From a virus (Duplodnaviria; Caudoviricetes), in the IMG/VR virus record IMGVR_UViG_3300020441_000003, positions 1 through 64,000 of that record: a stretch of DNA of 64,000 bases. One strand, 5' to 3'. The notes below the pieces were generated by a model. The model was not told where the DNA came from and did not search any database. It saw nothing but the letters and a program-made list of their open reading frames with translations. Position 1 is the first letter of the stretch. Each line of letters starts with the position of its first letter. Positions 30,089 to 51,100 of this stretch are shown piece after piece. The translations under genes and the position numbers were made by a program.

Positions 30089-30096
30089 TATTTAGT
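30089..30096 (-). promoter_or_regulatory. T4-type late promoter
   Basis: ACTAAATA-N5-ATG. Confidence 0.6.
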
Positions 30097-30766
30097 AAAT
30101 AAAGTCGCCGTTTTCATCTACTTCCCACTCTAAATCATGATTTTTTATGTTCTGTCTTTCTCGTCCACCAGTCACATCCCAATTAAAAGAAATACTGTAT
30201 CTATCTTTTTGAGTTAGATTAGGTTCGACCATATGCATGAGACCACTAGGAAAAAGATATAGATCACCAGTCTTTGGTCTAACTCCCCATGACTCCCATA
30301 TTCTTGCCTGTGAAGAAGGAAAGTTTGAAACTATTTTATGGTCTGTATCAACCATTCTAAGATCACCCTCATCTCCTTCTGCTTGAATAAAGAATACACC
30401 TGAATAAAAACAACCATTATGTAAGTGTGGGGCGTTCCAAGCGCCTGGATAGTTAATGTTTGCCCATGAGTTATGCAACTCTATCTTTGCTGAATCTTTT
30501 TCGATTCCGAGAAAAGGAACAAGTTCATCTCTAAATTCTCTTTTAATTTGTCTTAATGCACGAATAAAAACAGGATTTTTATCTATACCATCTATTGATT
30601 GCCAACCATTTCTATTAGATATATTTCTACCTTTGGGGTCACGCTTTCTCATTGCATCAATTTCTTCTTTCAATGCAACCATATATTCTGGTGTAATCTC
30701 AGAACATTTATCTCTATCAAGATATTGTTTAGTTAAAACGAATGTTGGAAATAATAATTTAATCAT
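30092..30766 (-). CDS. Putative 2OG-Fe(II) oxygenase (TIGR02466-like)
   Basis: GWQS, WANIN, HLH...SGVFFI, FPSGLMHMV, RYSISFN; start MIKLLFP overlaps the upstream stop. Confidence 0.88.
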   Translation of the reverse strand: MIKLLFPTFVLTKQYLDRDKCSEITPEYMVALKEEIDAMRKRDPKGRNISNRNGWQSIDGIDKNPVFIRALRQIKREFRDELVPFLGIEKDSAKIELHNSWANINYPGAWNAPHLHNGCFYSGVFFIQAEGDEGDLRMVDTDHKIVSNFPSSQARIWESWGVRPKTGDLYLFPSGLMHMVEPNLTQKDRYSISFNWDVTGGRERQNIKNHDLEWEVDENGDFIY

Positions 30767-31598
30767 CTTTTTCACTCTTATGAAAAGGACACTCAGGTGG
30801 TGGTTCATCTTCTTTATAGAACTGACCTTTCTCTTGCCAATATCCTTCTAGACGATAAGGACCCATTTTACCGTCTTTCTTCATGTCATCATATTTAGTT
30901 CGACCCATTTCATCCATTGTTGGCATATCATCATGTGCAGTATACTTACTTCTATTATCGTGCCAAGTTTGTGAATCTTTCAATTGATATGTTGCAACCC
31001 ATTCTTCCCTTTTGTAAGGTATTATTTGAACTAATGGTGTGCCTTTCTTAATTACAAATGAATGGTCTACTTTTGGATAAAAAATTATTTGTGAGTTATC
31101 ATAATTAGTATTAAACTTATCTGTATCAATTATTCCATGCCATGTAGAAAAGAATTTGTTTTGATGTAAAAATGGGTCAACATAAAAACAAGAATATCCT
31201 GGCGGTGTTTTAATATTCCAGGCACTTCTCATTTTAAATGCATCTCTAACTGGATTATCACCACCTAGATATTCAAATGTATGGTCTACTTGATCTGCTG
31301 GGTGTGATGGCGAATTGTAATTGCCTTTCTCATCTTTAGTTATATAACTAGAACTGTTTTCTGAAAATCTATCAGCGCCTACTAAAACTTGCATATCTCT
31401 ATTTGCAGTTATAAACCATCCTGATTTTGTCCAGTCATGCATAGCTGGACATGCACGAATAGTCTGAGTAAACTTACCTCTAATAGATTGATTTACTTTC
31501 ATTTTTTTCCACCAATCAGGTAATAAACTCTTTGCAAGAACTGGTTTAAAGTCTCTTAAACTATCTTCATTGAATGTTATAAAGTCTATTGTAGGCAT
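30759..31598 (-). CDS. Hypothetical protein, dUTPase-like beta fold (DUF6065-like)
   Basis: TIRACPAM, WNIKTPPGYS, GIIDTD, IKKGTPLVQIIP. Confidence 0.6.
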   Translation of the reverse strand: MPTIDFITFNEDSLRDFKPVLAKSLLPDWWKKMKVNQSIRGKFTQTIRACPAMHDWTKSGWFITANRDMQVLVGADRFSENSSSYITKDEKGNYNSPSHPADQVDHTFEYLGGDNPVRDAFKMRSAWNIKTPPGYSCFYVDPFLHQNKFFSTWHGIIDTDKFNTNYDNSQIIFYPKVDHSFVIKKGTPLVQIIPYKREEWVATYQLKDSQTWHDNRSKYTAHDDMPTMDEMGRTKYDDMKKDGKMGPYRLEGYWQEKGQFYKEDEPPPECPFHKSEKDD

Positions 31599-32269
31599 GT
31601 TAATTCTACCTCGTCCCCTCTCAATACGATTGATCTTCTATCTGCATATCTAGCTCTTTCGTTAGGCGCATCTGCACCGTGTGGTATTCTTCCGTCAAAC
31701 ATAAGTAATCTATTTGGTTTAAAATCAACTTCTGCTATTTGATGATTTTCTATATGTTCATTTCTGCCTTCTAAACCTTGTTGATGTTCATTATAAAATC
31801 TCAATGTTCCGCCCCAATCATCATTCCAAAAAGTATTGTAATAGTATAGAAAAGATAAATTATAATCATCATCTTTGTCACAATCTGAATGTGTAGTTCC
31901 GTGTTGACCATATGTTTGTGAATTAGTTCCCATATATTGAAATCTTATCCAATCAAATCCAAAATCAGTTTTTATTTTATCATTCAAATATTTTGCCATA
32001 TATGTATATTGTTTTGGAATATCTTCAATCATTTGACCATTTTTTGCAGTAAAGAAACTTGAACCCCAAAATTGATGGTGAGGCAAACCTGTTTTACTTT
32101 GACCTCTAACAGAATTTGTTTTAGACCATGTTGGCATATTTGTTATCTGTTGATTTAAAAAATGATGCAATGATTGTTCTAGATAATTGTCTATTACATA
32201 TACTTTATCTAAAGGCAATTTATCAATATGAAAAGGTTTATCAACCTTAACTATTTCTAAAGAGTTCAT
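31586..32269 (-). CDS. 2OG-Fe(II) oxygenase, prolyl-hydroxylase-like
   Basis: HSD, WNDDWGGTLRF, FKPNRLLMFDGRIPHGA...R. Confidence 0.9.
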   Translation of the reverse strand: MNSLEIVKVDKPFHIDKLPLDKVYVIDNYLEQSLHHFLNQQITNMPTWSKTNSVRGQSKTGLPHHQFWGSSFFTAKNGQMIEDIPKQYTYMAKYLNDKIKTDFGFDWIRFQYMGTNSQTYGQHGTTHSDCDKDDDYNLSFLYYYNTFWNDDWGGTLRFYNEHQQGLEGRNEHIENHQIAEVDFKPNRLLMFDGRIPHGADAPNERARYADRRSIVLRGDEVELTCLQ

Positions 32270-32820
32270 TAGTCTATGAAAGCTTTTTGTGGTGGCGGTA
32301 TTAGATTTGCATAATCTTCAAATGGTTTTAAAACATCTTCTCTAGTTGACTGTATTTCATTAGCAACATTGATGTATACATTCCAGACGGCATCATAATA
32401 CTCTAATACTCTTCTTGCATCTGATCTTAAAGGGTGATTTGAACCCTCTCTGCCAGCCGCTATAACATCTATAGAATCTGTGAATCCATATGATTCAGAT
32501 TGTTGATACACATAATCTTTACACATTTCATTTAGATTTTCTGAATATTGATTGTTTAGATTTACATTTTCTGGTGGTGCAGAATTTTCAATGTAAGTTT
32601 CTATTGCATCTATTTCAGTATCGTTTAGATTTACTTTCACTTGTTCATCAAAACAGACATTATCTTTCCATTCTAGTATTTTAACTTCTATGTCGTCATA
32701 GACTACAACATCGTATTCAAATCCTAATTCAGGTTTATCTGTATTTTCAAAGTTGTATTGTAATCCATTCGGTTTTCTAACAGTTAGAGTTCCGTTTTCA
32801 TCGTATATAAACATATTCAT
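32269..32820 (-). CDS. Hypothetical protein (possible fibre assembly chaperone)
   Basis: Acidic 183 aa next to fibre genes; function inferred from position only. Confidence 0.55.
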   Translation of the reverse strand: MNMFIYDENGTLTVRKPNGLQYNFENTDKPELGFEYDVVVYDDIEVKILEWKDNVCFDEQVKVNLNDTEIDAIETYIENSAPPENVNLNNQYSENLNEMCKDYVYQQSESYGFTDSIDVIAAGREGSNHPLRSDARRVLEYYDAVWNVYINVANEIQSTREDVLKPFEDYANLIPPPQKAFID

Positions 32821-32837
32821 AATAACTCCATTATATC

Positions 32838-34376
32838 TTAATTGTTATGTTTTGCCAATAGTTTTTCGTAAATATTTAGGTGTTGTATCTCAGATGTATC
32901 CATACCCTCAATCCAAGGTCCGCCTCTTGTGTAATGAACTGCAAGTGGTCTCCATACTTTATCTGTATATGCATGTCCTTCTGTAATTACAAACCATTCT
33001 GGTATTTCTGATATTGCATCAGTCCATTCAAATTGATGTAAGTATTTTCCTGTTTCTGTATTCACTACTTCTGGTGTTAGTTTTTTACAGTCTTCATGAC
33101 CATTATTAAATATCATAAGCGAGGACCAAAGTTTCTTCGGATATGATACATTCTTTTCACCTGTAAATTTAGTTTCAGGATACTTATCAAAGTCGTATTG
33201 TATACATGCAACTGCATCATCAGGATTCATAAAGTAAAACATAGGTAAAATACTTCCGTCAAATAGAATATCATCATCTAAAAAGATACTAAATCCTTCA
33301 TAGTTTTCTAAATGTGGTATTAAAAATCTACTATATGTAAATTCAGTAGATTGATTTGCATAGTCTCTAGTATACTCAGGTATCTTTGAAATGTCAAGAA
33401 ACTTTATTTCTGGTCGCCATTTAGACATCGAACCATTGATATCACCTCCACCAAAACCATGATTTATACCTTTCTCTAAACATTTTTTACATAAGTCTGC
33501 AAGGTCTGTATGTCTTGAATCATAACCAACATATATGTTTAGTGGTTTACCTTTACATAACTTAGATACTTTTCTATTGAACTCATATACATTTTGTCTG
33601 AAAGATGTTTGAACTGATGCTTCGCAAGATATCTCTATGTAACCATTAGAATAATTAAACGATATATTCTTATGACCTTTTTTTGTAAATTCATTTTCTT
33701 TTACATCTTCTATCAGTTCTTCAATAGTATATTCTGGTGAATCTATAACATCAAACTCGTCCCAAATCCACATTGGCAATGTAGGGTCATCAAGTATTTC
33801 GAAGACACCTGATCTTACAGAACCTGGGTGTATTGCGAGTCTATATTTATCATTGTGTCCTTCATTTACTTTACCTTGAATAGGATTCCAAAGTCCTTCT
33901 TTTCTAATACTGTCAATCAACCAATGTGCCTTTGCAGAATGATAATAAGAAGAATTTAATGCATCTCTCTTTCTACCCTCATACTCATAGTCTACATTAG
34001 TAAAGTCACAATGATTACCTATTTCTTCATATTCATCATTAACATTTTTAAAGTCCATGCCAGATTTGCCTGGTTCTGGAAGTTCAGGTTTTTCAGTATA
34101 CCCATAAGGCAAAAAATATTGATAAGTAAATGATTGTGATTGTAATTGATTCCAACCCCACATCTTACCGTCTTTAATAAGTTGTGCGATTTCACCCCAT
34201 GTAGTTTTTTTGAGTTTAATACCTAAATGATCTTTCAACCACTTAAATGTTTTGTATGCATTTTCATCTTCGTATGGTTGATCTACTTCAAAACCACCTA
34301 AATGGTAATGAAAAAATTTATCCTTAGGTTCAGAAAATGTTTCTTTAACTTGTTCTAGAGTTTTTGATTTCATCAT
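32838..34376 (-). CDS. Fusion: ParB/Srx-like segment plus GT-A glycosyltransferase
   Basis: LIDSIRKEGLWNPI...HPGSVR; IYVGYDSR, STEFTYSRFLIP, FLDDDILF, WSSLMIFN. Confidence 0.8.
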   Translation of the reverse strand: MMKSKTLEQVKETFSEPKDKFFHYHLGGFEVDQPYEDENAYKTFKWLKDHLGIKLKKTTWGEIAQLIKDGKMWGWNQLQSQSFTYQYFLPYGYTEKPELPEPGKSGMDFKNVNDEYEEIGNHCDFTNVDYEYEGRKRDALNSSYYHSAKAHWLIDSIRKEGLWNPIQGKVNEGHNDKYRLAIHPGSVRSGVFEILDDPTLPMWIWDEFDVIDSPEYTIEELIEDVKENEFTKKGHKNISFNYSNGYIEISCEASVQTSFRQNVYEFNRKVSKLCKGKPLNIYVGYDSRHTDLADLCKKCLEKGINHGFGGGDINGSMSKWRPEIKFLDISKIPEYTRDYANQSTEFTYSRFLIPHLENYEGFSIFLDDDILFDGSILPMFYFMNPDDAVACIQYDFDKYPETKFTGEKNVSYPKKLWSSLMIFNNGHEDCKKLTPEVVNTETGKYLHQFEWTDAISEIPEWFVITEGHAYTDKVWRPLAVHYTRGGPWIEGMDTSEIQHLNIYEKLLAKHNN

Positions 34377-34391
34377 ATAGTTTCATAATAT

Positions 34392-35600
34392 TTATCCAGT
34401 TATAGGACTGCCTGGCCACGAACCTGCTGGGTCACCGTCCCACCTAATTACAGGCGTTCTGCCTTGTCTTGCATATGTAGACGGACTTCTGTGATTGTAT
34501 GTAAAAGGTGTTCGACCTTGTCTTGCATAAGTCGATGGTGATCTATGGTTATAAGTCAACGGACTTCTATGTTGATATGTCAAAGGACTTCTATGTTGAT
34601 ATGTGCCAGGTTGTCTTGAATCTCTAATATTAGGTTCTTGTGCATTTGAAGCCACTTGATAGATTGCAGGTTGTCTTGCATCTCTAATATTAGGTTCTTG
34701 TTGGTTTCTAATAAACGGATTCTGTGCATTAACAATAGAAGGCTGTTGTTGGTCACGAATATTAGGTTCTTGTGCATTTGAAGCCACTTGATAAATCAAT
34801 GGTTGTCTTGCATCTCTAATGTTCGGTTCTTGTCCAGCCCTTATAAAAGGATTTTGTGCATTGGCAATAGAAGGCTGTTGTTGGTCACGAATATTTGGTT
34901 GTTGTGCGTTTGAGGCAACTTGATATATAAGAGGTTGTCTCGCATCTCTAATATTAGGTTCCTGTTGGTCTCTAATAACAGGTTGTTGATTAGCTCTTAT
35001 ATTTGGTTCTTGTCCTGACCTGATATTTGGTTCCTGTGCATTTGAGGCCACTTGATAAATTAGTGGTTGTCTTGCATCTCTAATGTTTGGTTCTTGTTGC
35101 GATCTTATATTTGGTTCTTGTTGGTCTCTTATATTAGGTTGTTGTGCTGAACGAATATTTGGTTGTTGTGCATTGGAAGCCACTTGATAAATTAGTGGTT
35201 GTCTTGCATCTCTAATGTTTGGTTCTTGTGCATTTCTGATACTTGGTTCTTGAGCCGACCTGATATTTGGTTGTTGAGAAGACCTAATATTTGGTTCTTG
35301 TGCTGATACAGGATTTCTATATGTGAAAGGCGACCTGTGATTATATGTAAAAGGCAACTGATAACCAACAGGGTTTCTGTAACCGAATGGTGATCTATGA
35401 TTATATGTAAACGGATTTCTGTATGTAAAGGGCGACTGAAATGTAAATGGTTGTTGTCCTGCTACAGGGTTTCTATATGTAAATGGATTTCTATATGAAT
35501 ATGTTTGTTGACCAGACACAGGTGACCTATAAGTGAAAGGGTTTCTTCCACTGTTTGGTTGTCTTGCGTTTGCTATTGTTGGTTGCTGTGCTGACGGCAT
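34392..35600 (-). CDS. Pro-punctuated repeat fibre protein B (mirror partner of 35604-37436)
   Basis: 48 x-x-P units; QEPNIR-rich middle, YQHRSP-rich C-terminus. Confidence 0.85.
   Translation of the reverse strand: MPSAQQPTIANARQPNSGRNPFTYRSPVSGQQTYSYRNPFTYRNPVAGQQPFTFQSPFTYRNPFTYNHRSPFGYRNPVGYQLPFTYNHRSPFTYRNPVSAQEPNIRSSQQPNIRSAQEPSIRNAQEPNIRDARQPLIYQVASNAQQPNIRSAQQPNIRDQQEPNIRSQQEPNIRDARQPLIYQVASNAQEPNIRSGQEPNIRANQQPVIRDQQEPNIRDARQPLIYQVASNAQQPNIRDQQQPSIANAQNPFIRAGQEPNIRDARQPLIYQVASNAQEPNIRDQQQPSIVNAQNPFIRNQQEPNIRDARQPAIYQVASNAQEPNIRDSRQPGTYQHRSPLTYQHRSPLTYNHRSPSTYARQGRTPFTYNHRSPSTYARQGRTPVIRWDGDPAGSWPGSPITG
34452..35588 (-). repeat. Coding tandem repeats of 18/24/30/36 nt with a 132-nt super-period
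   Basis: Five DARQPxIYQVASNAQ blocks 44 aa apart. Confidence 0.9.
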
Positions 35601-35603
35601 AAA

Positions 35604-37436
35604 CTATTTCGGTAAACCGCCCCCTGGATTCATATTTTCCATGTTATGCACTAACATACCATTAGCAAAGAAATTATGATTTTCATTTACTCCCGATAAG
35701 TTATATACTTGCATGTCTGTGTTTTCGTTTATAGAAATTATTTCTAATCCTACATCGTCTGTTCTGTCAAACATAATCGCATCTGTCATTGAGAATAAAC
35801 TATCACCAACTTTAAGTTCATGAGAGTTTACGCCCTCCATCCAATCATGTTGTCTCTGACATTTTTCAACATCAAATGCTCCCCATTCTCCGTTAGTCAT
35901 CATTAGTGGATGACTATCTGTGACTTGTAATATTCTTCCGTCTGATAACTCTACATCATATATAGAGTCTATTCTTGGTACCATCACATGATATATTGAT
36001 TTTGGTTCTATTATCTTTGTGCTTTCGTTCCAAGTCATTATGTATTGTCCATTCACACAATGCTCGATAGGCGCATGACTGCCATCTCCTAACCAAATCA
36101 TTGTGCCAGGTGCGAAACAACCGCCACCAAATGGTATCTGAATCGGATTTCTATGTTGATATGTAAACGGCGATTGAGATGTAAATGGTTGTTGTCCGTT
36201 TACAGGATTTCTATATGTAAATGGTGTTCTTCCTATAACTGGTTGTTGTCCATTTACAGGGTTTCTGTATGTAAATGGATTTCTTGCACTATTCGGTTGT
36301 CTTGCATTACTTGGTGATTGTGCTGACCTAATATTTGGTTCTTGTGCGTTTACAGGATTTCTATATCCTCTCGGCGTTCTTGCATTTCTGATATTAGGTT
36401 GTTGACCAGATACAGGTGATCTATAAGTGAAAGGCGATCTATGCTGATATGTAAACGGTGACCTATGGCCATAAGTAAGAGGCGATCTAAAGTTATAAGT
36501 AGACGGACTTCTATGTTGATATGTAAACGGCGCTTGATAACTTCTAGGGTCTTGATATATAGAAGGCGATCTATGTTGATATTCAAACGGACTTCTATGT
36601 TGATAAGTTGTAGGCGATCTATGTTGATAAGTTGCAGGTGACCTATGTTGATATGTAAACGGCGCTTGATAACTTCTAGGGTCTTGGTATATAGAAGGCG
36701 ATCTATGTTGATATGTAAACGGTGACCTGTGTTGATAATTAGACGGACTTCTATGTTGATAAGTTGTAGGCGATCTATGTTGATATGTAAATGGCGCTTG
36801 ATAACTTCTAGGGTCTTGATATATTGACGGACTTCTGTGTTGATATATTACAGGCGTTCTTAAATTATATGTAGACGGACTTCTATGCTGATATGTAAAC
36901 GGACTTCTGTGTTGATATGTAAAAGGCGTTTGATAACTTCTAGGGTCTTGGTATATTGAAGGCGATCTATGTTGATAAATTATCGGTGTTCTTAAATTAT
37001 ATGTAGATGGACTTCTGTGTTGATAAGTTGCAGGCGACCTGTGATTATATGTGAAAGGTACCTGATAACTTCTCGGGTCTTGATATATTGACGGACTTCT
37101 GTGTTGATATGTAAAAGGCGTCTGATTACTTCTTATATTAGGTTCTTGTTGTGACCTTATATTGGGTTCTTGTTGGTCTCTAATTACAGGTTCTTGTGCA
37201 TTCGCAATATAAGGATATGGTTGTTGGCCATTTCTAATAAAAGGATTTTGAGCGTTCGCAATATAAGGATAAGGCTGTTGAACGCTCTCCTGTCCTGATG
37301 CATTGTTCCAACCAGAAGGCGTTTTGATATAGATTTGATCTACATCTTTCCATGTGCCTGAAGCTGTTTTTACCCAAGCACCTCGGGTTGCTGACCAACC
37401 TGAAGGAGTTTTTACCTTTTGTGAACCTGTTGCCAT
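35604..37436 (-). CDS. Pro-punctuated repeat fibre protein A with C-terminal Hint domain
   Basis: N-terminal VKTxSGxW hairpins, 48 x-x-P units, Hint motifs. Confidence 0.88.
   Translation of the reverse strand: MATGSQKVKTPSGWSATRGAWVKTASGTWKDVDQIYIKTPSGWNNASGQESVQQPYPYIANAQNPFIRNGQQPYPYIANAQEPVIRDQQEPNIRSQQEPNIRSNQTPFTYQHRSPSIYQDPRSYQVPFTYNHRSPATYQHRSPSTYNLRTPIIYQHRSPSIYQDPRSYQTPFTYQHRSPFTYQHRSPSTYNLRTPVIYQHRSPSIYQDPRSYQAPFTYQHRSPTTYQHRSPSNYQHRSPFTYQHRSPSIYQDPRSYQAPFTYQHRSPATYQHRSPTTYQHRSPFEYQHRSPSIYQDPRSYQAPFTYQHRSPSTYNFRSPLTYGHRSPFTYQHRSPFTYRSPVSGQQPNIRNARTPRGYRNPVNAQEPNIRSAQSPSNARQPNSARNPFTYRNPVNGQQPVIGRTPFTYRNPVNGQQPFTSQSPFTYQHRNPIQIPFGGGCFAPGTMIWLGDGSHAPIEHCVNGQYIMTWNESTKIIEPKSIYHVMVPRIDSIYDVELSDGRILQVTDSHPLMMTNGEWGAFDVEKCQRQHDWMEGVNSHELKVGDSLFSMTDAIMFDRTDDVGLEIISINENTDMQVYNLSGVNENHNFFANGMLVHNMENMNPGGGLPK
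35643..36119 (-). other. Hint (intein-like) domain, 159 aa, no endonuclease
   Basis: Starts CFAPGT, block B TDSHP, ends VYNL...HNFFANGMLVHN; +1 residue is Met. Confidence 0.9.
36144..37280 (-). repeat. Coding tandem repeats with a 132-nt super-period
   Basis: Five RSPSIYQDPRSYQ blocks 44 aa apart. Confidence 0.9.
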
Positions 37437-37454
37437 GTTATATCCTAATTACTC

Positions 37455-39929
37455 TTATGAGTATAGTATCCATAAATCTCCAACTGCACCATCTGAACTA
37501 CCAGGCGCTGAAGTTGATTGATATATGTTTCTCGCTACACCACCACTATTATTTGCGTATGATGTTGTAATTTGTGAGGCTCTAAAGTTTGCCTCTGAAA
37601 ATGTTAAGTTACCAGTTGATGCACCAGTAAATGAACCAGTTCCTACTGTCACTCTATCTGCACTTTCATCCCAACCAATAAATACATTGTCTGAACTTCC
37701 TCTTTCAAAAACAAGACCCATATCGTTGCCTGGTGTGCCTGTTGTTCCAGTTCCTAATTCTATTAATCTATCTTCGATAGTTGTGTTTGTTGATGATGCA
37801 GTTGTTGTTGCACCATTAACAGTTAAATTACCTGTGACTGTTAAATCGTTTGTGACTGCTAAATCATTTCCTATTGTCACATCATCTGGTAATGAAATTG
37901 TGACACCTGCTGTTTCTGAACCAGAACCTGATACTGTAATTTCATTTGAGGTACCTGCTACAGTTGCAACATAGTTTCCTGTTGTATCTGTGCCTAGTGC
38001 AACTGAGTTAGCGGCGATAGTAGTTGATATTGATACATTGCCTTTTGCAGTCTGAGTTGCGGTACCTGTGACATCACCTGTCAATGCAAAGTCTGAGTTT
38101 GCAACTACGAAATCTAAATTACCATCTGTATCATCGTATGATACTGAGATACCTGTTTCGGTACCATCTAACATACCACCAACAAAGTCTTCTACATTTT
38201 CTTGTGTAAGTTGAGTATTGTTTGTTGATATTGAACCACCAAGTGATACTGCTGTGCCATCGATTGTTATTGAACTATTTGATAGTAATGAGTTACCAAT
38301 AGAACCTGCAAGTTTGCCAGCGGCTATCGAACCTGCCAACATGGCATTTGTGACACCACCTGCTTTAACTTGTAATTGATCTGAACTTGTTTCTATTGAA
38401 CTATCATCTACACCAACTGCAAGAGATACGGAACTTCCAAGTGATACTGAACCACCACCTGATAAACCGTCACCTGCTGTGACTGTGACTGCACTATTAG
38501 CGAGTTTGCCATTTGCGATTGAACCTGCTAACATAGCGTTTGTGACACCTGATGCCTTGATTCTTAATGCATCACTGTTTGTTTCTATAGAACTGTCATC
38601 TACGCCTACTGCAAGAACACCACTTGTTGCAGATAAACCATCACCTGCAATTGCAGTCACTACATCTGCGACTGCCTCTTTCTTAGAACTGTTATCGCCT
38701 GCATCTATAATAGCAATACTATCATTTGCAACATCTACGGCGGCCGCTGTTAGTTCGTTTAAATCTAATGCAAGTGATACTGCACCTGATGTGCCACCAC
38801 CTGAGAGTCCGTTTCCTGCTGTGACTCCTGTAATATCGGCACTATTTGAGTTTGTTATTGTTAATGAATTAGCGGCGTCATCATATGATAATGATATACC
38901 AGTTCCTGCTGTTAGTAGTGCATTTACTCTGTCATCTACTCTTTCGTTTGTGTGATATAAATTAGATGAACCCTCTCCAACACTATCTGTATTGAGAGTT
39001 AAAGAACCACCTAATGAAACTGAACTACTGTTTAATGTTATTGCAGAGTTGGCTAATTCTGCGTTTGCAACACCACCGTCTTTGATTGTGACTGCGCCAC
39101 TTGATACTGCAAAATTATCTGAACTAAATGATGCAACACCTTTGTTAGATGTAGTTGCATCTTCGGCTGAATATGTGACTGTGCCTGAACTTTCTGCAAC
39201 ATCGATTCCTTCTCCAGCACTGAATGTTATTGTTCCACCTAATGATGTTGCAGTCGAATTACTGCCATCGGTAACTGTGATTGATGAGTTTGCAAGTTTA
39301 GAGTTCGCAATCGAACCACCTAACATTGCATTTGTGACACCTGATGCTTTTACTTGAAGTGTATCAGAAGAAATCTCTATTGAACTATCATCTACTTGAA
39401 CATTAAGTGTGACATCTCCTGATGTGCCACCACCTGTCAAACCACTTCCTGCAACGACAGATGATATATCTCCTGTTTCTGATATACTTAATACACCACT
39501 AGATGCATTTAATCCTGAACCTGCCATGGCAGATACTAAATCTGCAATCGTTTCTTTTTTACTTGCGTTTGAATCGTTAGCATCTATTAATACGACACTA
39601 TCGTTTGCGACATCAACTGTAGCCGCTGTTAATTCGTTCAGATCAAGAGCAAGTGATAATGCACCTGATGTGCCACCACCTGATAATCCATTTCCTGCTG
39701 TGACACCTGTAATGTCACCTACTTGTCCGTTAATTGTTAGGGTTCCAGCGGCGTCATCATATGATAACGATATACCTGTTCCCGCTGTTAAGAGAGTATT
39801 TACTTGGTCATCAATAACTTCTAGAGCTGCTGTGGAAAAAGCAGCTGCTGTCAAGTCACCTGAACTGTCGATGACTTCCGTAGAACCAATACTAAGTCCG
39901 TTTTTGATTCTAAAATTTTGAGCTGCCAT
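37455..39929 (-). CDS. Long tail fibre-like structural protein with internal repeats
   Basis: Gly/Ser/Thr/Ala-rich; repeated ITGVTAGNGLSGGGTSG and VDDSSIE...GVTNAMLAGSIAN; ends GAVGDLWILYS. Confidence 0.8.
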   Translation of the reverse strand: MAAQNFRIKNGLSIGSTEVIDSSGDLTAAAFSTAALEVIDDQVNTLLTAGTGISLSYDDAAGTLTINGQVGDITGVTAGNGLSGGGTSGALSLALDLNELTAATVDVANDSVVLIDANDSNASKKETIADLVSAMAGSGLNASSGVLSISETGDISSVVAGSGLTGGGTSGDVTLNVQVDDSSIEISSDTLQVKASGVTNAMLGGSIANSKLANSSITVTDGSNSTATSLGGTITFSAGEGIDVAESSGTVTYSAEDATTSNKGVASFSSDNFAVSSGAVTIKDGGVANAELANSAITLNSSSVSLGGSLTLNTDSVGEGSSNLYHTNERVDDRVNALLTAGTGISLSYDDAANSLTITNSNSADITGVTAGNGLSGGGTSGAVSLALDLNELTAAAVDVANDSIAIIDAGDNSSKKEAVADVVTAIAGDGLSATSGVLAVGVDDSSIETNSDALRIKASGVTNAMLAGSIANGKLANSAVTVTAGDGLSGGGSVSLGSSVSLAVGVDDSSIETSSDQLQVKAGGVTNAMLAGSIAAGKLAGSIGNSLLSNSSITIDGTAVSLGGSISTNNTQLTQENVEDFVGGMLDGTETGISVSYDDTDGNLDFVVANSDFALTGDVTGTATQTAKGNVSISTTIAANSVALGTDTTGNYVATVAGTSNEITVSGSGSETAGVTISLPDDVTIGNDLAVTNDLTVTGNLTVNGATTTASSTNTTIEDRLIELGTGTTGTPGNDMGLVFERGSSDNVFIGWDESADRVTVGTGSFTGASTGNLTFSEANFRASQITTSYANNSGGVARNIYQSTSAPGSSDGAVGDLWILYS

Positions 39930-43657: not shown

Positions 43658-44431
43658 TTAATCGCTAAATTGTGCAGTAGGTACCGATTGATGTATTTTT
43701 TCTACTGTCGAACTATCTTTTTTCACAAATACTTGACTTACTTTCGATACACCTTGTGCTTGTTTCTTAAATACACCTTTAACTTTTGCTACTTGTTGTA
43801 TAGGTCTAGTTGTAATATATGGTTGTTGATATATAAACGGACTTCTATACCCATATGGTAATGTATATGGTTGTTGAGTATTAGCAGATGTTTGTGCGTT
43901 TCTTATAAAAGGACTTTGTGCATTCGAAGGATTCCTATAAGTTGACGGCGATCTATGTTGATACTGTATAGGACTTCTATGATTATAAAAAGTCGGTGAT
44001 CTATGTTGATAGATTACTGGTTGTCTAGAATCTCTGATATTAGGTTCTTGTTGGTCTCTTATATTTGGTTCTTGTGCATTTCTAATATGTGGATTTTGTC
44101 TTTCAGCAGGTTGTCTTCCGATATATGGACTTTGTGCATTTTTAATTACAGGTTCTTGATACGCAACAGGATTTCTGTAGAATGCAGGTTGTTGTTGAGC
44201 TCTCTCGTTAGGTTGTTGAGCATCTGCGATATACGGATATGGTTGTTGTTGACTTCTAATAAAAGGATTTGCTTTATTTCTAATAAAAGGATTCTGCACA
44301 CTGTAAGTTGACGGTGATCTATGTTGATACGAAGATGGTTGTCTTGCATTTCTGATATGTGGATTTTGCACATCATAAGATGCAGGTTGTCTTGCAATTA
44401 TCGGAGTTGTAAACTGATATGCTACGCCCAT
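43658..44431 (-). CDS. Pro-punctuated repeat fibre protein D (mirror partner of 44435-46012)
   Basis: x-x-P units over residues 8-210; C-terminal VKGVFKK...VSQVFVKK. Confidence 0.82.
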   Translation of the reverse strand: MGVAYQFTTPIIARQPASYDVQNPHIRNARQPSSYQHRSPSTYSVQNPFIRNKANPFIRSQQQPYPYIADAQQPNERAQQQPAFYRNPVAYQEPVIKNAQSPYIGRQPAERQNPHIRNAQEPNIRDQQEPNIRDSRQPVIYQHRSPTFYNHRSPIQYQHRSPSTYRNPSNAQSPFIRNAQTSANTQQPYTLPYGYRSPFIYQQPYITTRPIQQVAKVKGVFKKQAQGVSKVSQVFVKKDSSTVEKIHQSVPTAQFSD

Positions 44432-44434
44432 TGC

Positions 44435-46012
44435 TTATTCTCCCTCTTCCTCGTCATCATTATTAGATTCAGCACTGGCACCAACTGCAAAAACAATTAG
44501 TAAATCACATTTATGTTCTACATTTGTGTCTAAATCTTTTATCATAAATTCTAAAATAGTTGATGAACCCCTATTATCAGCTGCGGAACCCTCACTTCCG
44601 TTAGTATCAACAGTAGTGCTATAACCTATTTCAAGTCCGTGGGTGCCTAGATTTTGATATGAAGTTGTTATTCCAGTCACACCAGTCGGAACTCCTAAAG
44701 CATGTTTTCTAGTAGTGGTCTCATCTGGATTACCATCATTGGTAGTTACCGAAGTCACACCAGTGGTTGTTCGTGGCCATTGCTCTGGTGTGCCTAAGCA
44801 TCCCATATCACTTGCTAGTTCAGCATAATTAGATGCATCTGGAGTATATCCCTTACTGGCAAGTTGACCATTCCATTGTGAGACATTTAAACTGTAAGGA
44901 GATGCTGTCGGGTTTGCATAATTAACTTTTACTTGAGCTCTTGAAGCTCCTATATTTGTAAGTTTAAATATTTGAGAAAAAGAAGAAGTTCCTATATCAC
45001 TGGTTGTATAACTAAATGAACTAGATGCTGATGATGACATATTACCTATTCTAGAATGATGTGGTGTCGTATTTGATAAAGTATCAACTGAACTAGCCTC
45101 TCTTACAAGAATTTCAACATCATTAGTATTTGTATATTGAACTTTAAATTCAAATCCAGCACCTGCTACGGCAGTTGAACCAGAGGCACTTGTATCTAAA
45201 TCAAATCCACCATCAATACCAATAATACTTGAAGCTCCTTGTTGTCTTATTGAATTGCCAGTGTTCGTATCATTTGGTATACCAGCACCTGTGCCAAATC
45301 CTGTTATAAGTTCTGATGCTCTTGCAATATATTCAACTTGACCTACTGTTAAAAATCCTGATGCAGGTTGTTGATGACTGTAAGTTGTTTGATATGAACC
45401 TATTGACGGACTTCTAAAGACATATGTAAATGGTGTTTGTGCGTTTCTTATAAACGGATTTTGTGCATTTGCAATCGATGGTGATCTATGACTATATGTG
45501 CTTGGACTTTGATGCTGATAGATAACTGGATTTCGACCTGTCGCCTGATATGAAGACGGACTTCTATGTTGATATATTATAGGGTGTCTGTATGCAACTG
45601 GACTTCGATAAGTTCCTGGTGATCTATGTTGATATGTTGAAGGCTGTCTTGCTTGATAACTTACCTGATAAATCGATGGTGATCTATGTGAATATTCAAA
45701 TGGACTTCTATGGTTATAAGTCAACGGACTTCTATGTTGATATGTAAACGGAATCTGTTGCGCTCTAATATTAGGTTCTTGTTGTGACCTTATATTAGGT
45801 TCTTGTTGGTTTCTAATAAAAGGATTCTGTGTTGCTACAGGATTCTGATATGTTGACGGTGATCTATGAGCGTAAGTAGAAGGAACCTGATAGATTGCAG
45901 GAGTTCTTGCATCTCTCTGAGCAATTACTGGTTCTTGTGCGTTCTTTGATGCCCTAGCTATATAAGGTTGTTGAAAGGCCGCTGGGTGTTTGATAAAAAT
46001 ATCATCTGACAT
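44435..46012 (-). CDS. Pro-punctuated repeat fibre protein C with C-terminal globular domain
   Basis: x-x-P units over residues 14-216, then about 300 aa of non-repetitive beta-rich sequence. Confidence 0.82.
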   Translation of the reverse strand: MSDDIFIKHPAAFQQPYIARASKNAQEPVIAQRDARTPAIYQVPSTYAHRSPSTYQNPVATQNPFIRNQQEPNIRSQQEPNIRAQQIPFTYQHRSPLTYNHRSPFEYSHRSPSIYQVSYQARQPSTYQHRSPGTYRSPVAYRHPIIYQHRSPSSYQATGRNPVIYQHQSPSTYSHRSPSIANAQNPFIRNAQTPFTYVFRSPSIGSYQTTYSHQQPASGFLTVGQVEYIARASELITGFGTGAGIPNDTNTGNSIRQQGASSIIGIDGGFDLDTSASGSTAVAGAGFEFKVQYTNTNDVEILVREASSVDTLSNTTPHHSRIGNMSSSASSSFSYTTSDIGTSSFSQIFKLTNIGASRAQVKVNYANPTASPYSLNVSQWNGQLASKGYTPDASNYAELASDMGCLGTPEQWPRTTTGVTSVTTNDGNPDETTTRKHALGVPTGVTGITTSYQNLGTHGLEIGYSTTVDTNGSEGSAADNRGSSTILEFMIKDLDTNVEHKCDLLIVFAVGASAESNNDDEEEGE

Positions 46013-47933: not shown

Positions 47934-48138
47934 GTAATTTCTCTATAATATCTTTCAATAAATCTTTTATTTCTGTTACCTCTTGTTTAAGAGTATTTAT
48001 TTCAGAACGCTGAGCTTTCATAACTTCTCTGCGTTTCATCACTAATCTATAATGTTCAGTATTAGTATTTATTATAGCACTTGAAGTTTCATCTCTTATC
48101 AAGTCTATATGTCCTTCTACTTTACTATACTTACTCAT
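47926..48138 (-). CDS. Small coiled-coil protein after the VrlC-like gene
   Basis: MSKYSKVEGHIDLIRD...EINTLKQEVTEIKDLL; start overlaps the upstream TAA. Confidence 0.75.
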   Translation of the reverse strand: MSKYSKVEGHIDLIRDETSSAIINTNTEHYRLVMKRREVMKAQRSEINTLKQEVTEIKDLLKDIIEKLHG

Positions 48139-51100
48139 TATGCTAATGCCATACATCTAAGTGCTGATACTAATGGCACGATAGATGTATTCTGTGCTTG
48201 TCCTACTATCTTAATCTGGAATGCTGTGAACTCTGCAAGACCATCTGCTGTATATTCATATTCTTTAAAGTTTCTAGCATCTTGTTCAAGTGCGATATCT
48301 GGTGAACCATCTGTGTTAAAGAATTCAAATCCTAAATCATCGATAGGTGTTGTTTCATCGTTCTTCAATATCTTGAACATGAATTTTAAATCTGTGTCTG
48401 GCGGTCTAAAGTTATCTGCAATAACTTTTATTGATGATGCAGGATTTTTCAATGCAACTTTTCTTGTTATATAAACAAACTCATTATTATCACCGTCTGG
48501 TTCTGTAGATGGTGTGTAAGCTCTTCCTGTTGATACATCGCCTGATACATCAATATCATTAATTCTATTCATGATACCTAATGCACCTATTGTGCCTGTA
48601 TCTATGATTGGTGATATATTTGGATTTGCAGTTATTAATTGCAATCTACATTCTAATGATTTTGTTGTAGGTCCACCTGAAACTTCATTGACTTCATTAA
48701 CAGATGATGCAATAACACTTGGTCTTTCAAAGAAGTTATTATCATTTAATGTTATAAAGTCATTTGTTGATCTCATGAGATATGCAGTGTCTAAACTTGA
48801 TGATTCTGGAGAATTCATACCTGTTCTTCTTACACTCGGTATTAAATCACAATCTTTAAATGTTAATGATGGTATCATTGTATGTAATACATCGTAATAT
48901 AAATTATTTGTCACAAATACACTGCTACCACCACCTATTGTAGATTGTATAGCGTTAGTATATGATAAATGGAAACTTGATAAATCAGGTGTCACGCAGA
49001 ATGAATCTATATCGTAATGGTTTATACTATTGAATACTTGATTCAATGCTGATACAGGTAAACCACCTAGTGTATCACCTACACTTGCAATTGTCAATGA
49101 GACTGCTGTGCCTGAACCATTTACATCTGCAACTGTTATTGTTTCGTTAGCTGCATATCCTTGACCTGGATTACTAATAGTTGCACTTGTAGCATTACCA
49201 GATGCATCTGTTGTTATTGTTTGTATTACACAACCACCATTTGGATTACCACTTGAATTTGAATGTGTTTGAGTTTTAGCACTTACATTAAATGTTGTGC
49301 TGTTTGAACCTAATGCAGTAGAAGGAACACTAACTGTTAATACACCATTAGTTTTATCACCTGCTACTCCTGATATTACAACATTTGAATTTGTTGAATA
49401 ATTACCGTGTGAGTATGAATAGAATCTAGCAAATGATTGATTACTGTATACTTCTACACTGTTCTCTTTTATTAGATTTGCAGGTAAATGTTCGTTTTCA
49501 AATATGACATTTCCTGCAACATTTGTTGTAAACTTGGCTATCTTCATATGGAACTTTAAGTCGTCCATTTGTTCTGCACTCCAAGTAGATGCGTTTTGTG
49601 AAGTAAATAATGAACCTGCGTATGGTTGTCCTGATATTACTTGACCTGTTATTAAGTCTACTTCTCCCATTCTTGAAATGAAACACTCGTAATTGTTTGA
49701 ATTTGAGTAAACAACAAAACACATTTCTTTGCCTTCTTCAAGATATACAGGTGATTCAAAACTAAATGTAGTTGCAACTGAACCATCTTCTGATATGTTT
49801 ACATCTCCTGGATTCTTTGTGACTATTGAGAATGGTAATGTCACTTTACCAGGATATCCGTTTACTACATCTCTAATTTCTACTGAAACTGGTAATGATG
49901 CATCTTTTGATTTAAAGAATAGATCAATAGAAGTCAACATCATACCGCCATCTGCTTCTACTAAGAAAGTTTCTGCTAATGGGTCCATCCATCCTTCGTT
50001 TGTTCTCTCTGCTCTAAACACTCTTTCATCATCTGGCGCCACAAATCTATCGAATGGTGGAACTGGAGGTTGAACAGGCAACGGCACAGGCGTTGGTGCA
50101 GGTGTCGGTGCTGGCGTAGGCGCTGGTGTCGGCGCTGGAGGCGGAGGCGGAGGTGGATTAGGTGTCAACGCCGGAGTTGGAGGCGGAGGCGGTGGCGGAG
50201 GAGGTGGCGGTGGTGCTGGAGGCGGTGGAGGTGGAGTTGGTGGTAATGAACCATCACTCTCAATATTTAATCTTTCACCTCTTCTCATTATCTGCCTTTC
50301 GCCAGACAATCTCTCCATAATTACACGGCCATTTCTTGTAGATACTATCTCTGTTTGAGATGTATTTAATAATCCTTGTGCCTGATAATTAGAACTTGCT
50401 CTTGAATCAGGATTGTTTAAATTAGTTGCACTAGATGTGACTAATACTTGTCTTTGACCTGTAGGGAATCTCTGATTATCGTCATTTGGTATGTTAAAAT
50501 GACATATAACTCTTCCGTTACCATCTGTTTTTACACCAGATGTCACTGTCGTGCCTGAGTCTTGTGAATAGTTTGCATTGTCAGGTCTTACAAATTGGTC
50601 TACTCTAATACCATCAAAGTATATAAAGTGATTTGTGTTTGGTTTTAAATTTGTTGCATCAATCTTAATCTCTCTTGATCTGATGAAAGGTATAACTGAT
50701 ACACTAACAACTCTGTCATTTCTTGTTTCTACAAAGTCTTCAACTACTGATGTTCTTACACCTGTTCTTGATTGTATCTCAGGCGTATCTGTAATTTCTC
50801 TAGTTATTGTTGTGCCTTGTGTCCATTCACCGCCTTGAGCTGGGTCGCCAGACCAAGAACCTGGTACTGCAGCTACTGATTCTGTCTCTACGACTTGTGG
50901 TTCACCGACCCATGTTGTTTGCCATTCATTCCAGACTGTTCCTAGAGAGTTTTCGTTTTCTGCTAATACTGCATCAAAGTTTCCTTCTCTGTTAATCCTG
51001 ACATCAGGAAGTTGTTCGTGGTCATTCCATATATCTGTTTCTGGTGTAAGTTTAACATTACCAATAAATGCAAAGACATGATATGGGTTTACATTGATAT

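What the first reader, a model, noticed from the sequence alone, without database searches (positions are those of the whole stretch)
34392..37436. Two adjacent genes encode mirror-complementary proteins: a candidate sequence-coded antiparallel protein zipper
Seen: I cut both proteins at each x-x-P anchor. Protein A (35604-37436, residues 53-431) gives spacings 10,8,10,8,8,8,8,(12,8,8,8,8)x4,12,8,8,8,8,6,6,8,6,6,8,6,6,6,6,6,6,6,6,8. Protein B (34392-35600, residues 5-383) read C to N gives the identical series: 47 segments, 376 aa, all even numbers. Opposed segments are complementary rather than identical: YPYIANA/STYARQG (twice), xIR[DSN]x/xTY[QN]H, STYNL/SI[AV]NA (twice), SIYQDPRSY/xIYQVASNA (five times), FTY opposite VSG, VNG, VAG or SNA. 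The genes are not DNA inverted repeats, so the complementarity is at the protein level. Inference: A and B zip in register into a long antiparallel beta-ribbon heterodimer, about 120-130 nm if fully extended at about 0.33 nm per residue, forming a virion whisker. I know of no described fibre family built this way.
Basis: partly seen in the sequence, partly recalled or inferred. Interest (0 to 1): 0.97.

Follow-up and report, generated by a model that had tools for sequence, protein, structure and literature searches.

The report
Mirror-coded two-protein phage fibre
Two neighbouring genes of an uncultured marine T4-like phage encode proline-punctuated repeat proteins whose units match in length and are of opposite type when one chain is read backwards. 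About fifty related phages keep this rule, which points to a long two-chain antiparallel fibre held in register by a sequence code that I could not find described anywhere.

Summary
Protein A (35604-37436, minus strand) read N to C and protein B (34392-35600, minus strand) read C to N place their prolines at the same positions over 376 residues. There are 47 coincidences, against 17.4 +/- 2.6 after shuffling unit order and 32 for the parallel reading. The DNA is not an inverted repeat.

The rule generalises:
- 57 distinct A-B pairs from viral metagenomes keep it, with very different, aperiodic unit series.
- Array lengths co-vary (r = 0.987, slope 1.02).
- The cognate B is the best barcode match for 45 of 49 A proteins.
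- A second pair in this window, C/D (43658-46012), obeys the rule and does not cross-match A/B.
- Facing units are heterotypic, aromatic xTY-type against small xIR/xIA-type, in 1068 of 1100 eight-residue units, whichever chain carries which.
- Pro-Pro spacings are about 98% even.
- Residue coupling is confined to one face.

Best reading: an antiparallel, in-register A-B duplex, probably a two-stranded beta-ribbon. It would form a virion fibre encoded in the host-recognition cluster, with a self-cleaving Hint domain at its tip. The fold, the stoichiometry and presence in virions are inferred; structure prediction gave nothing usable. The repeat arrays have no Pfam or PDB relative, only unnamed metagenomic homologues, and no match in sequenced phage records. 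This scan noted the same kind of pair earlier on other genomes.

The parts
35604..37436 (-). Gene A, 610 aa: N-terminal Trp-rich domain, Pro-anchored repeat array, Gly hinge, Hint domain, 12-aa tail
   Evidence: ORF. 401+ metagenomic homologues. 197 related viral loci found, 80 kept.
37281..37436 (-). A residues 1-52: conserved N-terminal domain with many invariant columns. It lies opposite B's C-terminal tail in the mirror register and is the presumed virion-proximal anchor.
   Evidence: Invariant columns in alignments A1/A2. 45 representative clusters carry it. None found in the sequenced phage records.
36144..37274 (-). A repeat array, P55-P431 (376 aa; units of 6, 8, 10 and 12 residues)
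   Evidence: Pro parse, matched units, no K/C/M/W.
36431..37115 (-). 132-bp (44-aa) super-repeat in A, 5.2 copies, 79% matches
   Evidence: Tandem Repeats Finder.
35643..36119 (-). A residues 440-598: Hint / intein-splicing domain. Cys1 follows a Gly run; T-x-x-H and terminal His-Asn are present; the +1 residue is Met.
   Evidence: PF14890 E = 1e-9, 38.9 bits against a cut-off of 35.8. C440, H509, H597 and N598 are invariant. The +1 residue is never C/S/T in 17 relatives.
35601..35606 (-). A stop codon TAG plus one codon (TTT), then the ATG of B in the same frame
   Evidence: Sequence. The stop is TAA in a 92%-identical relative, and the spacing is not in frame in many loci.
34392..35600 (-). 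Gene B, 402 aa: almost entirely the counter-array, plus a conserved C-terminal Trp-rich tail
   Evidence: ORF. No Pfam, PHROG or PDB hit. Always directly downstream of A.
34452..35582 (-). B repeat array, P7-P383 (376 aa): the mirror image of A's series
34626..35303 (-). 132-bp super-repeat in B, 5.1 copies, 78% matches
34395..34451 (-). B residues 384-402: conserved tail (R-W-D-G ... W-P-G/A-x-P) that faces A's N-terminal domain
   Evidence: Invariant R207, W208, D209, W216, P217 and P220 of alignment A3. Present in all loci.
44435..46012 (-). Gene C, 525 aa: second pair. Array at residues ~10-216, then a 309-aa beta-sandwich domain.
   Evidence: AF2 pLDDT 84.5.
43658..44431 (-). Gene D, 257 aa: mirror partner of C. 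Array at residues ~8-210, then a Lys-rich C-terminal domain.
   Evidence: 24 coincident Pro with C, against 15 with A. Homologous C/D pairs also mirror.
37455..39929 (-). 824-aa fibre-like structural protein directly upstream, conserved beside A
   Evidence: phrog_697 structural protein. Upstream of A in 76 of 76 scorable loci.
30092..34376 (-). Conserved downstream cassette: GT8-domain fusion, 183-aa protein, 2OG-Fe(II) oxygenase (PF13640), 279-aa protein, second 2OG oxygenase (PF13759). These are possible modifiers of the fibre.
   Evidence: Pfam/PHROG. Downstream of B in 50-75 of 76 scorable loci, depending on the gene.

Best explanation
A and B are the two chains of one heteromeric fibre. 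They are made from adjacent genes. The chains lie antiparallel and in register over about 376 residues each.

Each chain is a string of short extended units bounded by Pro. All unit lengths are even, so the two-residue side-chain alternation runs unbroken through the whole array. Every Pro of B faces a Pro of A.

The most likely geometry is a two-stranded beta-ribbon. The imino groups would sit at the outward, non-hydrogen-bonded positions, and the Pro kinks would be matched level by level (inferred).

Two things would set register and partner choice:
- the aperiodic unit-length barcode;
- a unit-type code on one face, in which an aromatic xTY-type unit always faces a small xIR, xIA or V-S/N-A/G-type unit. 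Bulk is compensated residue by residue: Tyr3 faces Ala/Gly, Phe1 pairs with Ala/Gly5, and His5 faces Arg3 whereas Ala/Asn5 faces Ala3.

A's conserved N-terminal domain and B's conserved C-terminal tail meet at one end and probably dock on the virion. At the other end, A's Gly hinge and B's N-terminus form the tip.

In this phage the tip carries a Hint domain. It probably cuts itself off at Gly439|Cys440, as a disposable C-terminal module, leaving an A chain like that of the many Hint-less relatives.

The duplex, alone or bundled, would be a long thin appendage: up to about 125 nm if fully extended. It is encoded in the host-recognition cluster of a pelagimyophage-like T4-type virus. The C/D pair would be a second, orthogonal fibre in the same virion, carrying a globular distal domain.

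Shown: the mirror rule, its conservation, the covariation and the Hint motifs. Inferred: physical pairing, beta-ribbon geometry, stoichiometry, cleavage and virion location.
For: 1. The mirror in the window is exact: 47 coincident Pro, against 17.4 +/- 2.6 shuffled and 32 parallel. The in-register position is a unique maximum.
2. 57 distinct homologous pairs keep 80-95% of B's Pro mirrored, although their series differ widely and are aperiodic. Array length of A against B: r = 0.987, slope 1.02, n = 51, range 268-604 aa.
3. The cognate B is the top barcode match for 45 of 49 A proteins. Within this genome A-B scores 47 and C-D 24, while the cross pairs score only 15.
4. Unit types are heterotypic in 1068 of 1100 eight-residue units and 682 of 778 six-residue units, with either chain carrying the aromatic type about equally often. 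Copy-specific variants inside the super-repeats are matched at the mirrored copy.
5. Mutual information on 410 unique unit pairs is confined to odd positions whose indices sum to 6, 8 or 10. These are same-face direct and diagonal neighbours of an antiparallel pair. The equally variable position 4 is uncoupled.
6. About 98% of Pro-Pro spacings are even. This is needed in a continuous strand but not in a solenoid.
7. DNA complementarity is near the level set by the protein sequences (35.5% against 32.9 +/- 1.0%). The mirror is therefore kept at the protein level.
8. Both super-repeats have about 5 copies here and 5.4/5.4 in another lineage, with only 77-85% identity between copies.
9. Context: the order is gp6, gp7, gp8, VrlC-like giant protein, fibre genes, A-B, gp13, gp14. 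This is the 'host recognition cluster' of PMC7029224. The neighbourhood is conserved in about 75 of 76 loci.
10. The Hint catalytic motifs are invariant and the +1 nucleophile is absent. Hint-less A proteins end just after the same Gly run.
Against: No structure supports it. AF2 on B 180-402 with a 45-row alignment gives pLDDT 38 and no secondary structure. The ESM Atlas's own low-confidence model of B (pLDDT 0.55) looks like a beta-helix rather than a ribbon.

Both arrays are basic (about +32 and +20 at pH 7), so a bare duplex would carry a high like charge.

A few loci have unmatched super-repeat numbers: L018, L027, L039 and the 92%-identical L081. These may be assembly collapse, or they may be real mismatched variants.

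There is no proteomic or imaging evidence that the proteins are in virions. No cultured phage carries them.

Phage fibres are usually trimers, and a two-chain ribbon has no precedent.
Confidence: 0.72

Rival explanations
1. A and B do co-assemble antiparallel, but not as a flat two-stranded ribbon. Instead they form an interdigitated two-chain (or six-chain) beta-solenoid or beta-helix, or a bundle. Each Pro-bounded unit is one short strand, and A and B layers stack alternately. Facing layers must then have equal perimeter, which gives the mirror, and complementary core residues, which gives aromatic against small.
For: Six- and eight-residue repeats are typical of beta-helices; T4 gp5C, for example, has octapeptide repeats (from my own knowledge). 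The ESM Atlas model of B aligns to right-handed beta-helix clusters at TM 0.5-0.64 by query. Phage fibres are normally oligomeric beta-helical rods.
Against: The unit series are aperiodic. They run 10,8 then 12,8,8,8,8 then 6,6,8, and differ in every lineage. No constant coil perimeter therefore exists, yet a stacked layer would have to match two neighbours. The even-only spacing has no reason in a solenoid, where the turns reset side-chain alternation. The Atlas model has pLDDT 0.55, and AF2 gives pLDDT 38.
Confidence: 0.14
2. The mirror is a historical relic. B arose from an inverted duplication of A read on the antisense strand, so unit lengths are mirrored by descent and the proteins need not touch.
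For: The in-frame antisense register (A i + B j = 436) is the best of all DNA diagonals, at 35% against 25 +/- 2.5%. It has the highest share of antisense-compatible residue pairs, 28.6%. An Arg-x-Pro anchor can be self-complementary at the codon level (inference).
Against: Most of the excess follows from the protein sequences themselves: the codon-resampled null is 32.9 +/- 1.0% against 35.5% observed. The TY/IR opposition is not in the antisense register. Descent cannot explain why independent expansions and deletions in dozens of lineages stay mirrored, why lengths co-vary with slope 1, or why facing residues co-vary.
Confidence: 0.03
3. A and B pair as proposed but are not a virion fibre. 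They could be, for example, an intracellular scaffold or ruler used during assembly, or a secreted or host-surface-directed complex.
For: There are no proteomic data. The arrays are highly basic and free of Lys and Cys. A modifying-enzyme cassette is adjacent. A length-matched duplex could serve as a ruler.
Against: The genes sit inside the late structural block, among fibre-like genes and directly before gp13. The paralogous chain C ends in a confident beta-sandwich domain, like a distal fibre domain. Lengths vary 2.5-fold among close relatives whose core virion genes are conserved, which is unlike a ruler for a conserved part.
Confidence: 0.08

Closest known systems
Streptococcal antigen I/II (SpaP/SspB) stalk (from my own knowledge)
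   Same: Two different, complementary repeat regions of equal repeat number run antiparallel and wrap into one long thin stalk, with a functional domain at the tip.
   Different: There the two regions are in one polypeptide and pair as an alpha-helix with a polyproline-II helix. Here they are two separate gene products with beta-type, even-period units, an aperiodic length barcode and a unit-type code. There is no sequence relationship.
Triple-stranded beta-helix and beta-spiral fibres of phages and viruses (T4 gp5C/gp12 octapeptide repeats, adenovirus fibre shaft; from my own knowledge)
   Same: Short repeats punctuated by Pro or Gly, encoded in the tail or fibre module of a T4-like phage, building a long rod.
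   Different: Those are parallel homotrimers of one gene with near-constant repeat length. Here there are two genes, an antiparallel mirror, variable even unit lengths and heterotypic units. No Pfam, PHROG or PDB match was found.
Self-cleaving C-terminal intramolecular chaperone domains of phage fibres and tailspikes (endosialidase / T5 pb1 type; from my own knowledge)
   Same: A C-terminal module at the distal end of a fibre protein that is expected to remove itself after assembly.
   Different: Those are Ser-Lys peptidase S74 domains acting in homotrimers. Here the module is a Hint domain with Cys1, T-x-x-H and His-Asn.
Bacterial intein-like (BIL) and Hedgehog-type Hint domains
   Same: A Gly-Cys-Phe junction, block B T-x-x-H, terminal His-Asn and no +1 nucleophile. 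The expected outcome is therefore cleavage, or non-canonical ligation, rather than standard splicing (BIL chemistry from my own knowledge).
   Different: It sits at the end of a phage repeat protein, exactly at the predicted hairpin-like tip next to the partner's N-terminus. It is optional within the family: present in 20 of the 57 distinct pairs examined.
Heterodimeric coiled coils and collagen heterotrimers (register set by sequence code)
   Same: Partner choice and register are encoded by periodic complementary residues along two or three extended chains.
   Different: Pro every 6-12 residues excludes a coiled coil. Gly is 2.8% of the arrays, not every third residue. The periodicity is 2, not 3.5 or 3.

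Membership tests
Hint / intein splicing domain (PF14890), A residues 440-598 | Profile match above the curated threshold | tested here: met
   38.9 bits against a cut-off of 35.8, E = 1e-9, profile positions 3-155 of 155.
Hint / intein splicing domain (PF14890), A residues 440-598 | N-terminal nucleophile (Cys1), block B T-x-x-H, C-terminal His-Asn | tested here: met
   C440, H509, H597 and N598 are invariant and T506 is nearly invariant in 15 family members.
Canonical (class 1) intein | Cys/Ser/Thr at +1 of the C-extein, needed for splicing | tested here: not met
   The +1 residue is Met here and F, G, M, L, K or A in the 17 other Hint-bearing relatives listed.
Hint / intein splicing domain | Autocatalytic cleavage actually occurs | not testable with these tools
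   Needs expression and mass spectrometry.
Triple-stranded beta-helix / beta-solenoid fibre repeats | Near-constant repeat length giving a constant coil | tested here: not met
   Unit series are aperiodic mixtures of 6, 8, 10, 12, 14 and 16 residues and differ between lineages.
Triple-stranded beta-helix / beta-solenoid fibre repeats | Sequence or structural similarity to known members | tested here: inconclusive
   No Pfam, PHROG or PDB sequence hit for the arrays. The low-confidence Atlas model is beta-helix-like. AF2 gave no fold.
Collagen-like fibre | Gly at every third residue | tested here: not met
   Gly is 2.8% of array residues, and the period is 2.
T4 fibritin (wac)-type whisker | Heptad coiled coil with a C-terminal foldon | tested here: not met
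   Pro every 6-12 residues through the whole array. Only the genomic position resembles wac: after the fibre genes and before gp13.
Mirror-coded A/B pair family (defined here) | Adjacent co-oriented genes; Pro positions of A N-to-C coincide with those of B C-to-N; conserved A N-terminal domain and B R-W-D-G...W-P tail | tested here: met
Mirror-coded A/B pair family (defined here) | Facing units of opposite type (aromatic against small) | tested here: met
   All 46 matched units of the window follow it apart from a few GY/GY-type pairs. Family-wide it holds in 1068 of 1100 eight-residue units.

The most novel reading that the evidence does not exclude
These proteins are a natural 'protein duplex'. 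Two separate polypeptides recognise each other over hundreds of residues through a digital code: an even unit-length barcode plus aromatic/small unit complementarity on one face. This works much as complementary nucleic-acid strands do. One virion would use at least two mutually orthogonal duplexes (A/B and C/D). Their lengths would be tuned by matched expansion of super-repeats in both genes. The tip chemistry (Hint thioester) might even join the two chains covalently into a hairpin.
Probability: 0.5. Interest if true: 0.95.

Novelty: categorically new. Interest (0 to 1): 0.9.

Why it matters
If the pairing is real, it is a new principle of fibre construction. A heteromeric, antiparallel beta-type duplex would have its partner choice, register and length written in a simple, readable code.

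That would matter in four ways:
- It would explain a widespread, unannotated gene pair in the host-recognition cluster of abundant marine myoviruses.
- It would show how fibre length can evolve in steps, by matched super-repeat gain in two genes.
- It would provide a natural, orthogonal, length-programmable protein-protein zipper for protein engineering.
- It poses a clear evolutionary question: how two genes keep mirrored indels. That question can be tested in metagenomes.

Tried and rejected
- **Complex prediction.** A 1-258 with B 180-402, each with about 44-row alignments, gave 'no answer' (score 0.00, partner pLDDT under 50). This is neither support nor evidence against.
- **AF2 of B 180-402.** It gave pLDDT 38, so no fold search was possible.
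- **Fused A-B forms.** A 'longer' search with B found none at E <= 1e-10. The tool states this is weak evidence.
- **Sequenced phage records.** tblastn of A, of its N-terminal domain and of C's C-terminal domain found only distant Hint hits in Vibrio phage helicase inteins. Megablast of 12 kb found nothing.
- **Literature.** Searches for motif strings, for Hint plus cyanophage or pelagimyophage, for antiparallel heterodimer fibres and for octa/hexapeptide repeats in marine myoviruses found no description.
- **Stop-codon read-through.** The TAG + 1 codon + ATG arrangement is in frame, but I rejected read-through. The stop is TAA in a 92%-identical relative, and the spacer is out of frame in many loci.
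- **Antisense origin.** Tested and found insufficient.
- **Sequencing runs.** Laying Logan contigs of three DNA runs and one RNA run could not confirm super-repeat copy numbers, because the unitigs break inside the repeats. The many 'joints' have short sides and are probably repeat or other-strain artefacts.
- **Fold of C's C-terminal domain.** No match stood out: Foldseek found no E <= 0.001 and the best VIA Z was 3.8.
- **N-terminal domain look-alikes.** Pfam on multi-repeat look-alikes of the N-terminal domain was uninformative.
- **L081.** This was fetched as a test of a recent matched deletion. B is cut by the contig end and already has more super-repeats than A, which is probably a k-mer assembly collapse.
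Full report
**What is there.** The window is the first 64 kb of an 89.5-kb IMG/VR viral contig. It is a T4-like marine myovirus. Its major capsid protein is 64-66% identical to those of Pelagibacter phages HTVC008M and Mosig and of Methylophilales phage Melnitz. All genes discussed are on the minus strand. In transcription order they run:
- baseplate wedge gp6, a gp7-like protein, gp8;
- a 2268-aa VrlC-like giant protein and a 638-aa structural protein;
- C and D;
- fibre-like genes, then an 824-aa fibre-like protein;
- A and B;
- a GT8-domain fusion, a 183-aa protein, a 2OG-Fe(II) oxygenase, a 279-aa protein and a second oxygenase;
- gp13, gp14, gp15, terminase, sheath, portal, scaffold and capsid.

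A and B therefore lie in what PMC7029224 calls the host recognition cluster of pelagimyophages and cyanomyophages. This is roughly where T4 has gp12 and wac.

A (35604-37436, 610 aa) and B (34392-35600, 402 aa) are real ORFs. Cutting at Pro gives A, from P55 to P431, the series 10,8,10,8,8,8,8,(12,8,8,8,8)x5,6,6,8,6,6,8,6x8,8. B read backwards from P383 to P7 gives exactly the same series. In position terms, every Pro of B between 7 and 383 has a Pro of A at 438 minus its position. That is 47 coincidences, against 17.4 +/- 2.6 (maximum 26) when B's unit order is shuffled and 32 for the best parallel register. A slip by one super-repeat gives 33-34. A against itself gives 39 of 58, and B against itself 31 of 51. 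A's series is not palindromic, so the mirror is not trivial. The only caveats are that A has extra internal Pro in its 10- and 12-residue units, and that one B 12-mer lacks a Pro that A has.

**It is not a DNA inverted repeat.** rc(B) against A reaches only 35% identity on the mirror diagonal, against a background of 25 +/- 2.5%. That diagonal is the in-frame antisense register (sum 436). It has the largest share of antisense-compatible residue pairs, 28.6%. However, resampling synonymous codons while keeping both proteins already gives 32.9 +/- 1.0% against 35.5% observed. The TY/IR opposition is not in that register. An antisense origin is at most a faint relic and cannot maintain the pattern.

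**The rule is a family property.** A has more than 400 metagenomic homologues. A scan of IMG/VR found 197 related loci, of which 80 were fetched. In nearly all of the fetched loci (74 of 80) a B-like gene follows A on the same strand within a few dozen bases; in five the gap is about 280 nt and in three no B was found or A is cut. It ends in the same Trp-rich tail. Among 57 distinct pairs the mirrored register captures about 80-95% of B's Pro in about 50 of them, always far above shuffles and above the parallel reading. The unit series themselves differ greatly and are aperiodic. The length of A's array tracks B's length with r = 0.987 and slope 1.02 over 268-604 residues (n = 51). Using Pro positions alone, the cognate B is the best partner for 45 of 49 A proteins. 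The exceptions are L018, L027 and L039, which differ by exactly one or two 44-aa super-repeats in one gene, L077 by 18 aa, and L050 and L059, which are partly shifted. The 92%-identical L081 has two super-repeats in A but at least three in B before the contig ends. These may be short-read collapse of repeats or real mismatched variants; I could not tell. In the window the copy number is credible, because the five copies are only 78-79% identical at the DNA level. Another lineage (L014) also has 5.4 copies in each gene.

**A second, orthogonal pair.** They share 24 mirrored Pro. A-D and C-B reach only 15. Three homologous C/D pairs from other contigs also mirror, including one in which both arrays are expanded to about 330-360 residues. 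These two are the only such pairs in the contig. In C/D the terminal domains are arranged differently. C carries a 309-aa C-terminal domain that AF2 models with confidence (pLDDT 84.5, pTM 0.87) as beta-sandwiches. No convincing structural relative was found. D ends in a Lys-rich domain.

**A pairing code.**
- Facing units are of opposite type. An aromatic unit (Pro, x, Thr/Ile, Tyr ...) faces a small or polar unit (Pro, x, Ile, Arg ...; Pro, Tyr/Ser, Ile, Ala ...; or Pro, Val, Ser/Asn, Ala/Gly ...).
- Over all loci this holds for 1068 of 1100 matched eight-residue units and 682 of 778 six-residue units. Either chain carries the aromatic type about equally often.
- In the window the type switches chains several times along the array, and the partner always switches with it.
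- Residue tables show volume compensation. Tyr3 faces Ala or Gly. Phe1 goes with Ala/Gly5, while Ser, Leu or Thr at position 1 goes with Asn, Gln, Arg or Lys. His5 faces Arg3, while Ala/Asn5 faces Ala3. Arg6 faces Ile2.
- On 410 unique unit pairs, mutual information is concentrated in odd-odd position pairs whose indices sum to 6, 8 or 10. These are the direct and diagonal same-face neighbours expected in an antiparallel pair. Position 4 is just as variable but is uncoupled.
- About 98% of all Pro-Pro spacings in the family are even.
- The arrays contain no Lys, Cys, Met or Trp, and both are basic.

**How it most likely works.** Mirrored indels, a slope of 1, cognate-specific barcodes and same-face residue coupling are what direct side-by-side contact of two antiparallel chains predicts. 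I know of no other process that would produce them in two separate genes without DNA complementarity.

The even-only rule means the two-residue alternation of an extended strand is never broken. This argues that Pro does not make turns but sits within a continuous strand. In a two-stranded antiparallel ribbon, every second residue has its NH pointing outward, and Pro is tolerated there. Pro facing Pro at even spacing is that geometry, and matched Pro positions would also match local kinks. This last step follows from standard beta-sheet geometry and is inference, not a result.

An interdigitated solenoid remains possible. It fits the aperiodic series and the parity rule less well. Its only support is a low-confidence Atlas model.

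A's conserved N-terminal domain and B's conserved tail meet at one end. Because they are the most conserved parts, they probably dock on the virion. The other end is variable. It may be a short tail after a Gly run, a Hint domain, or another C-terminal extension, as in L031-L034 and L066.

**The Hint domain.** A residues 440-598 match PF14890 above threshold. Cys1 follows the Gly run. T-x-x-H and the terminal His-Asn are invariant in the family. The +1 residue is never Cys, Ser or Thr. Canonical splicing is therefore not expected. Cleavage at Gly439|Cys440, and possibly at the Asn, is expected, as in bacterial intein-like and Hedgehog-type Hint domains (my own knowledge). Hint-less relatives end a few residues after the same Gly run. 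The mature A chain would thus be alike in both forms. Whether the thioester is simply hydrolysed or attacked by B's nearby N-terminus is open.

**What failed.** Complex prediction gave no answer, and AF2 on B alone gave pLDDT 38. No structural statement rests on a model. The stretch occurs nearly unchanged in marine metagenomes from at least eight studies between 2014 and 2025, so the virus is widespread. Unitigs break inside the repeats. One metatranscriptome contig spans the A/B junction (35449-35675). This is only a weak hint of co-transcription.

**Comparison and novelty.** The arrays have no Pfam, PHROG or PDB relative. None of the 50,697 sequenced phage records carries the arrays, A's N-terminal domain or C's distal domain. 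Five literature searches found nothing. The nearest analogy in principle is the antigen I/II stalk of streptococci, where two complementary repeat regions of one chain pair antiparallel as helix and PPII. The nearest relatives in context are the beta-helical and beta-spiral homotrimeric fibres. Neither shares the defining features found here: two genes, a mirror barcode, even period and heterotypic units.

Earlier notes and two follow-up reports of this same scan described the same kind of pair in other genomes and reached a similar reading. They are not independent evidence. All numbers above were derived here.

**Verdict.** Antiparallel in-register pairing is well supported by covariation. 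The beta-ribbon geometry, the stoichiometry, Hint cleavage and the role as a virion fibre are inferred.

Noticed in passing
43658-46012: Second mirror pair, C/D. It has its own barcode and does not cross-match A/B. C ends in a confidently modelled 309-aa beta-sandwich domain (pLDDT 84.5) with no clear structural relative. D ends in a Lys-rich domain.
   Followed up: yes
30092-34376: A cassette of a GT8-domain fusion, a 183-aa protein, a PF13640-type (prolyl-hydroxylase-like) 2OG oxygenase, a 279-aa protein and a PF13759 oxygenase follows B in 50-75 of 76 scorable loci. It could hydroxylate or glycosylate the Pro/Thr/Tyr/Asn-rich arrays. This was not tested.
   Followed up: partly
35598-35606: The A stop (TAG), one codon and the B start are in one frame. 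Many Hint-less loci also have in-frame spacers of 9-51 nt. The stop type and frame are not conserved, so read-through is unlikely. A past split of one hairpin-encoding gene is conceivable.
   Followed up: partly
34452-37274: The in-frame antisense register (sum 436) gives the highest DNA identity (35.5%) and the highest share of antisense-compatible residue pairs (28.6%) of all registers. This is slightly above a codon-resampled null (32.9 +/- 1.0%). It may be a faint relic or a by-product of Arg-x-Pro anchors.
   Followed up: partly
L018, L027, L039, L077, L081: Pairs in which one gene has one or two super-repeats (44 or 88 aa), or 18 aa, more than its partner. It is unknown whether these are assembly collapse or natural mismatched intermediates of length evolution.
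   Followed up: partly
L031-L034, L066 (A about 719-739 aa): These A variants have a different C-terminal extension of roughly 150 aa in place of Hint, and a 283-nt spacer before B. The extension has no Pfam family. The tip of the fibre seems to accept different modules.
   Followed up: partly
37281-37436: A's N-terminal domain contains two K-T-P-x-G-W hairpin-like motifs. Short matches to it recur 4-12 times in unrelated metagenomic proteins. Pfam did not name that repeat.
   Followed up: partly
34452-37274: Both arrays lack Lys, Cys, Met and Trp entirely and are strongly basic (about +32 and +20). The family-wide composition is dominated by P, Q, Y, N, R, A and T.
   Followed up: yes
35449-35675: A 227-nt contig from a marine metatranscriptome run (X15) matches without mismatch and spans the A/B junction. 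DNA carry-over cannot be excluded.
   Followed up: no
48138-54944: A 2268-aa VrlC-like giant structural protein (phrog_358) lies upstream of the fibre cluster, as described for pelagimyophages.
   Followed up: no
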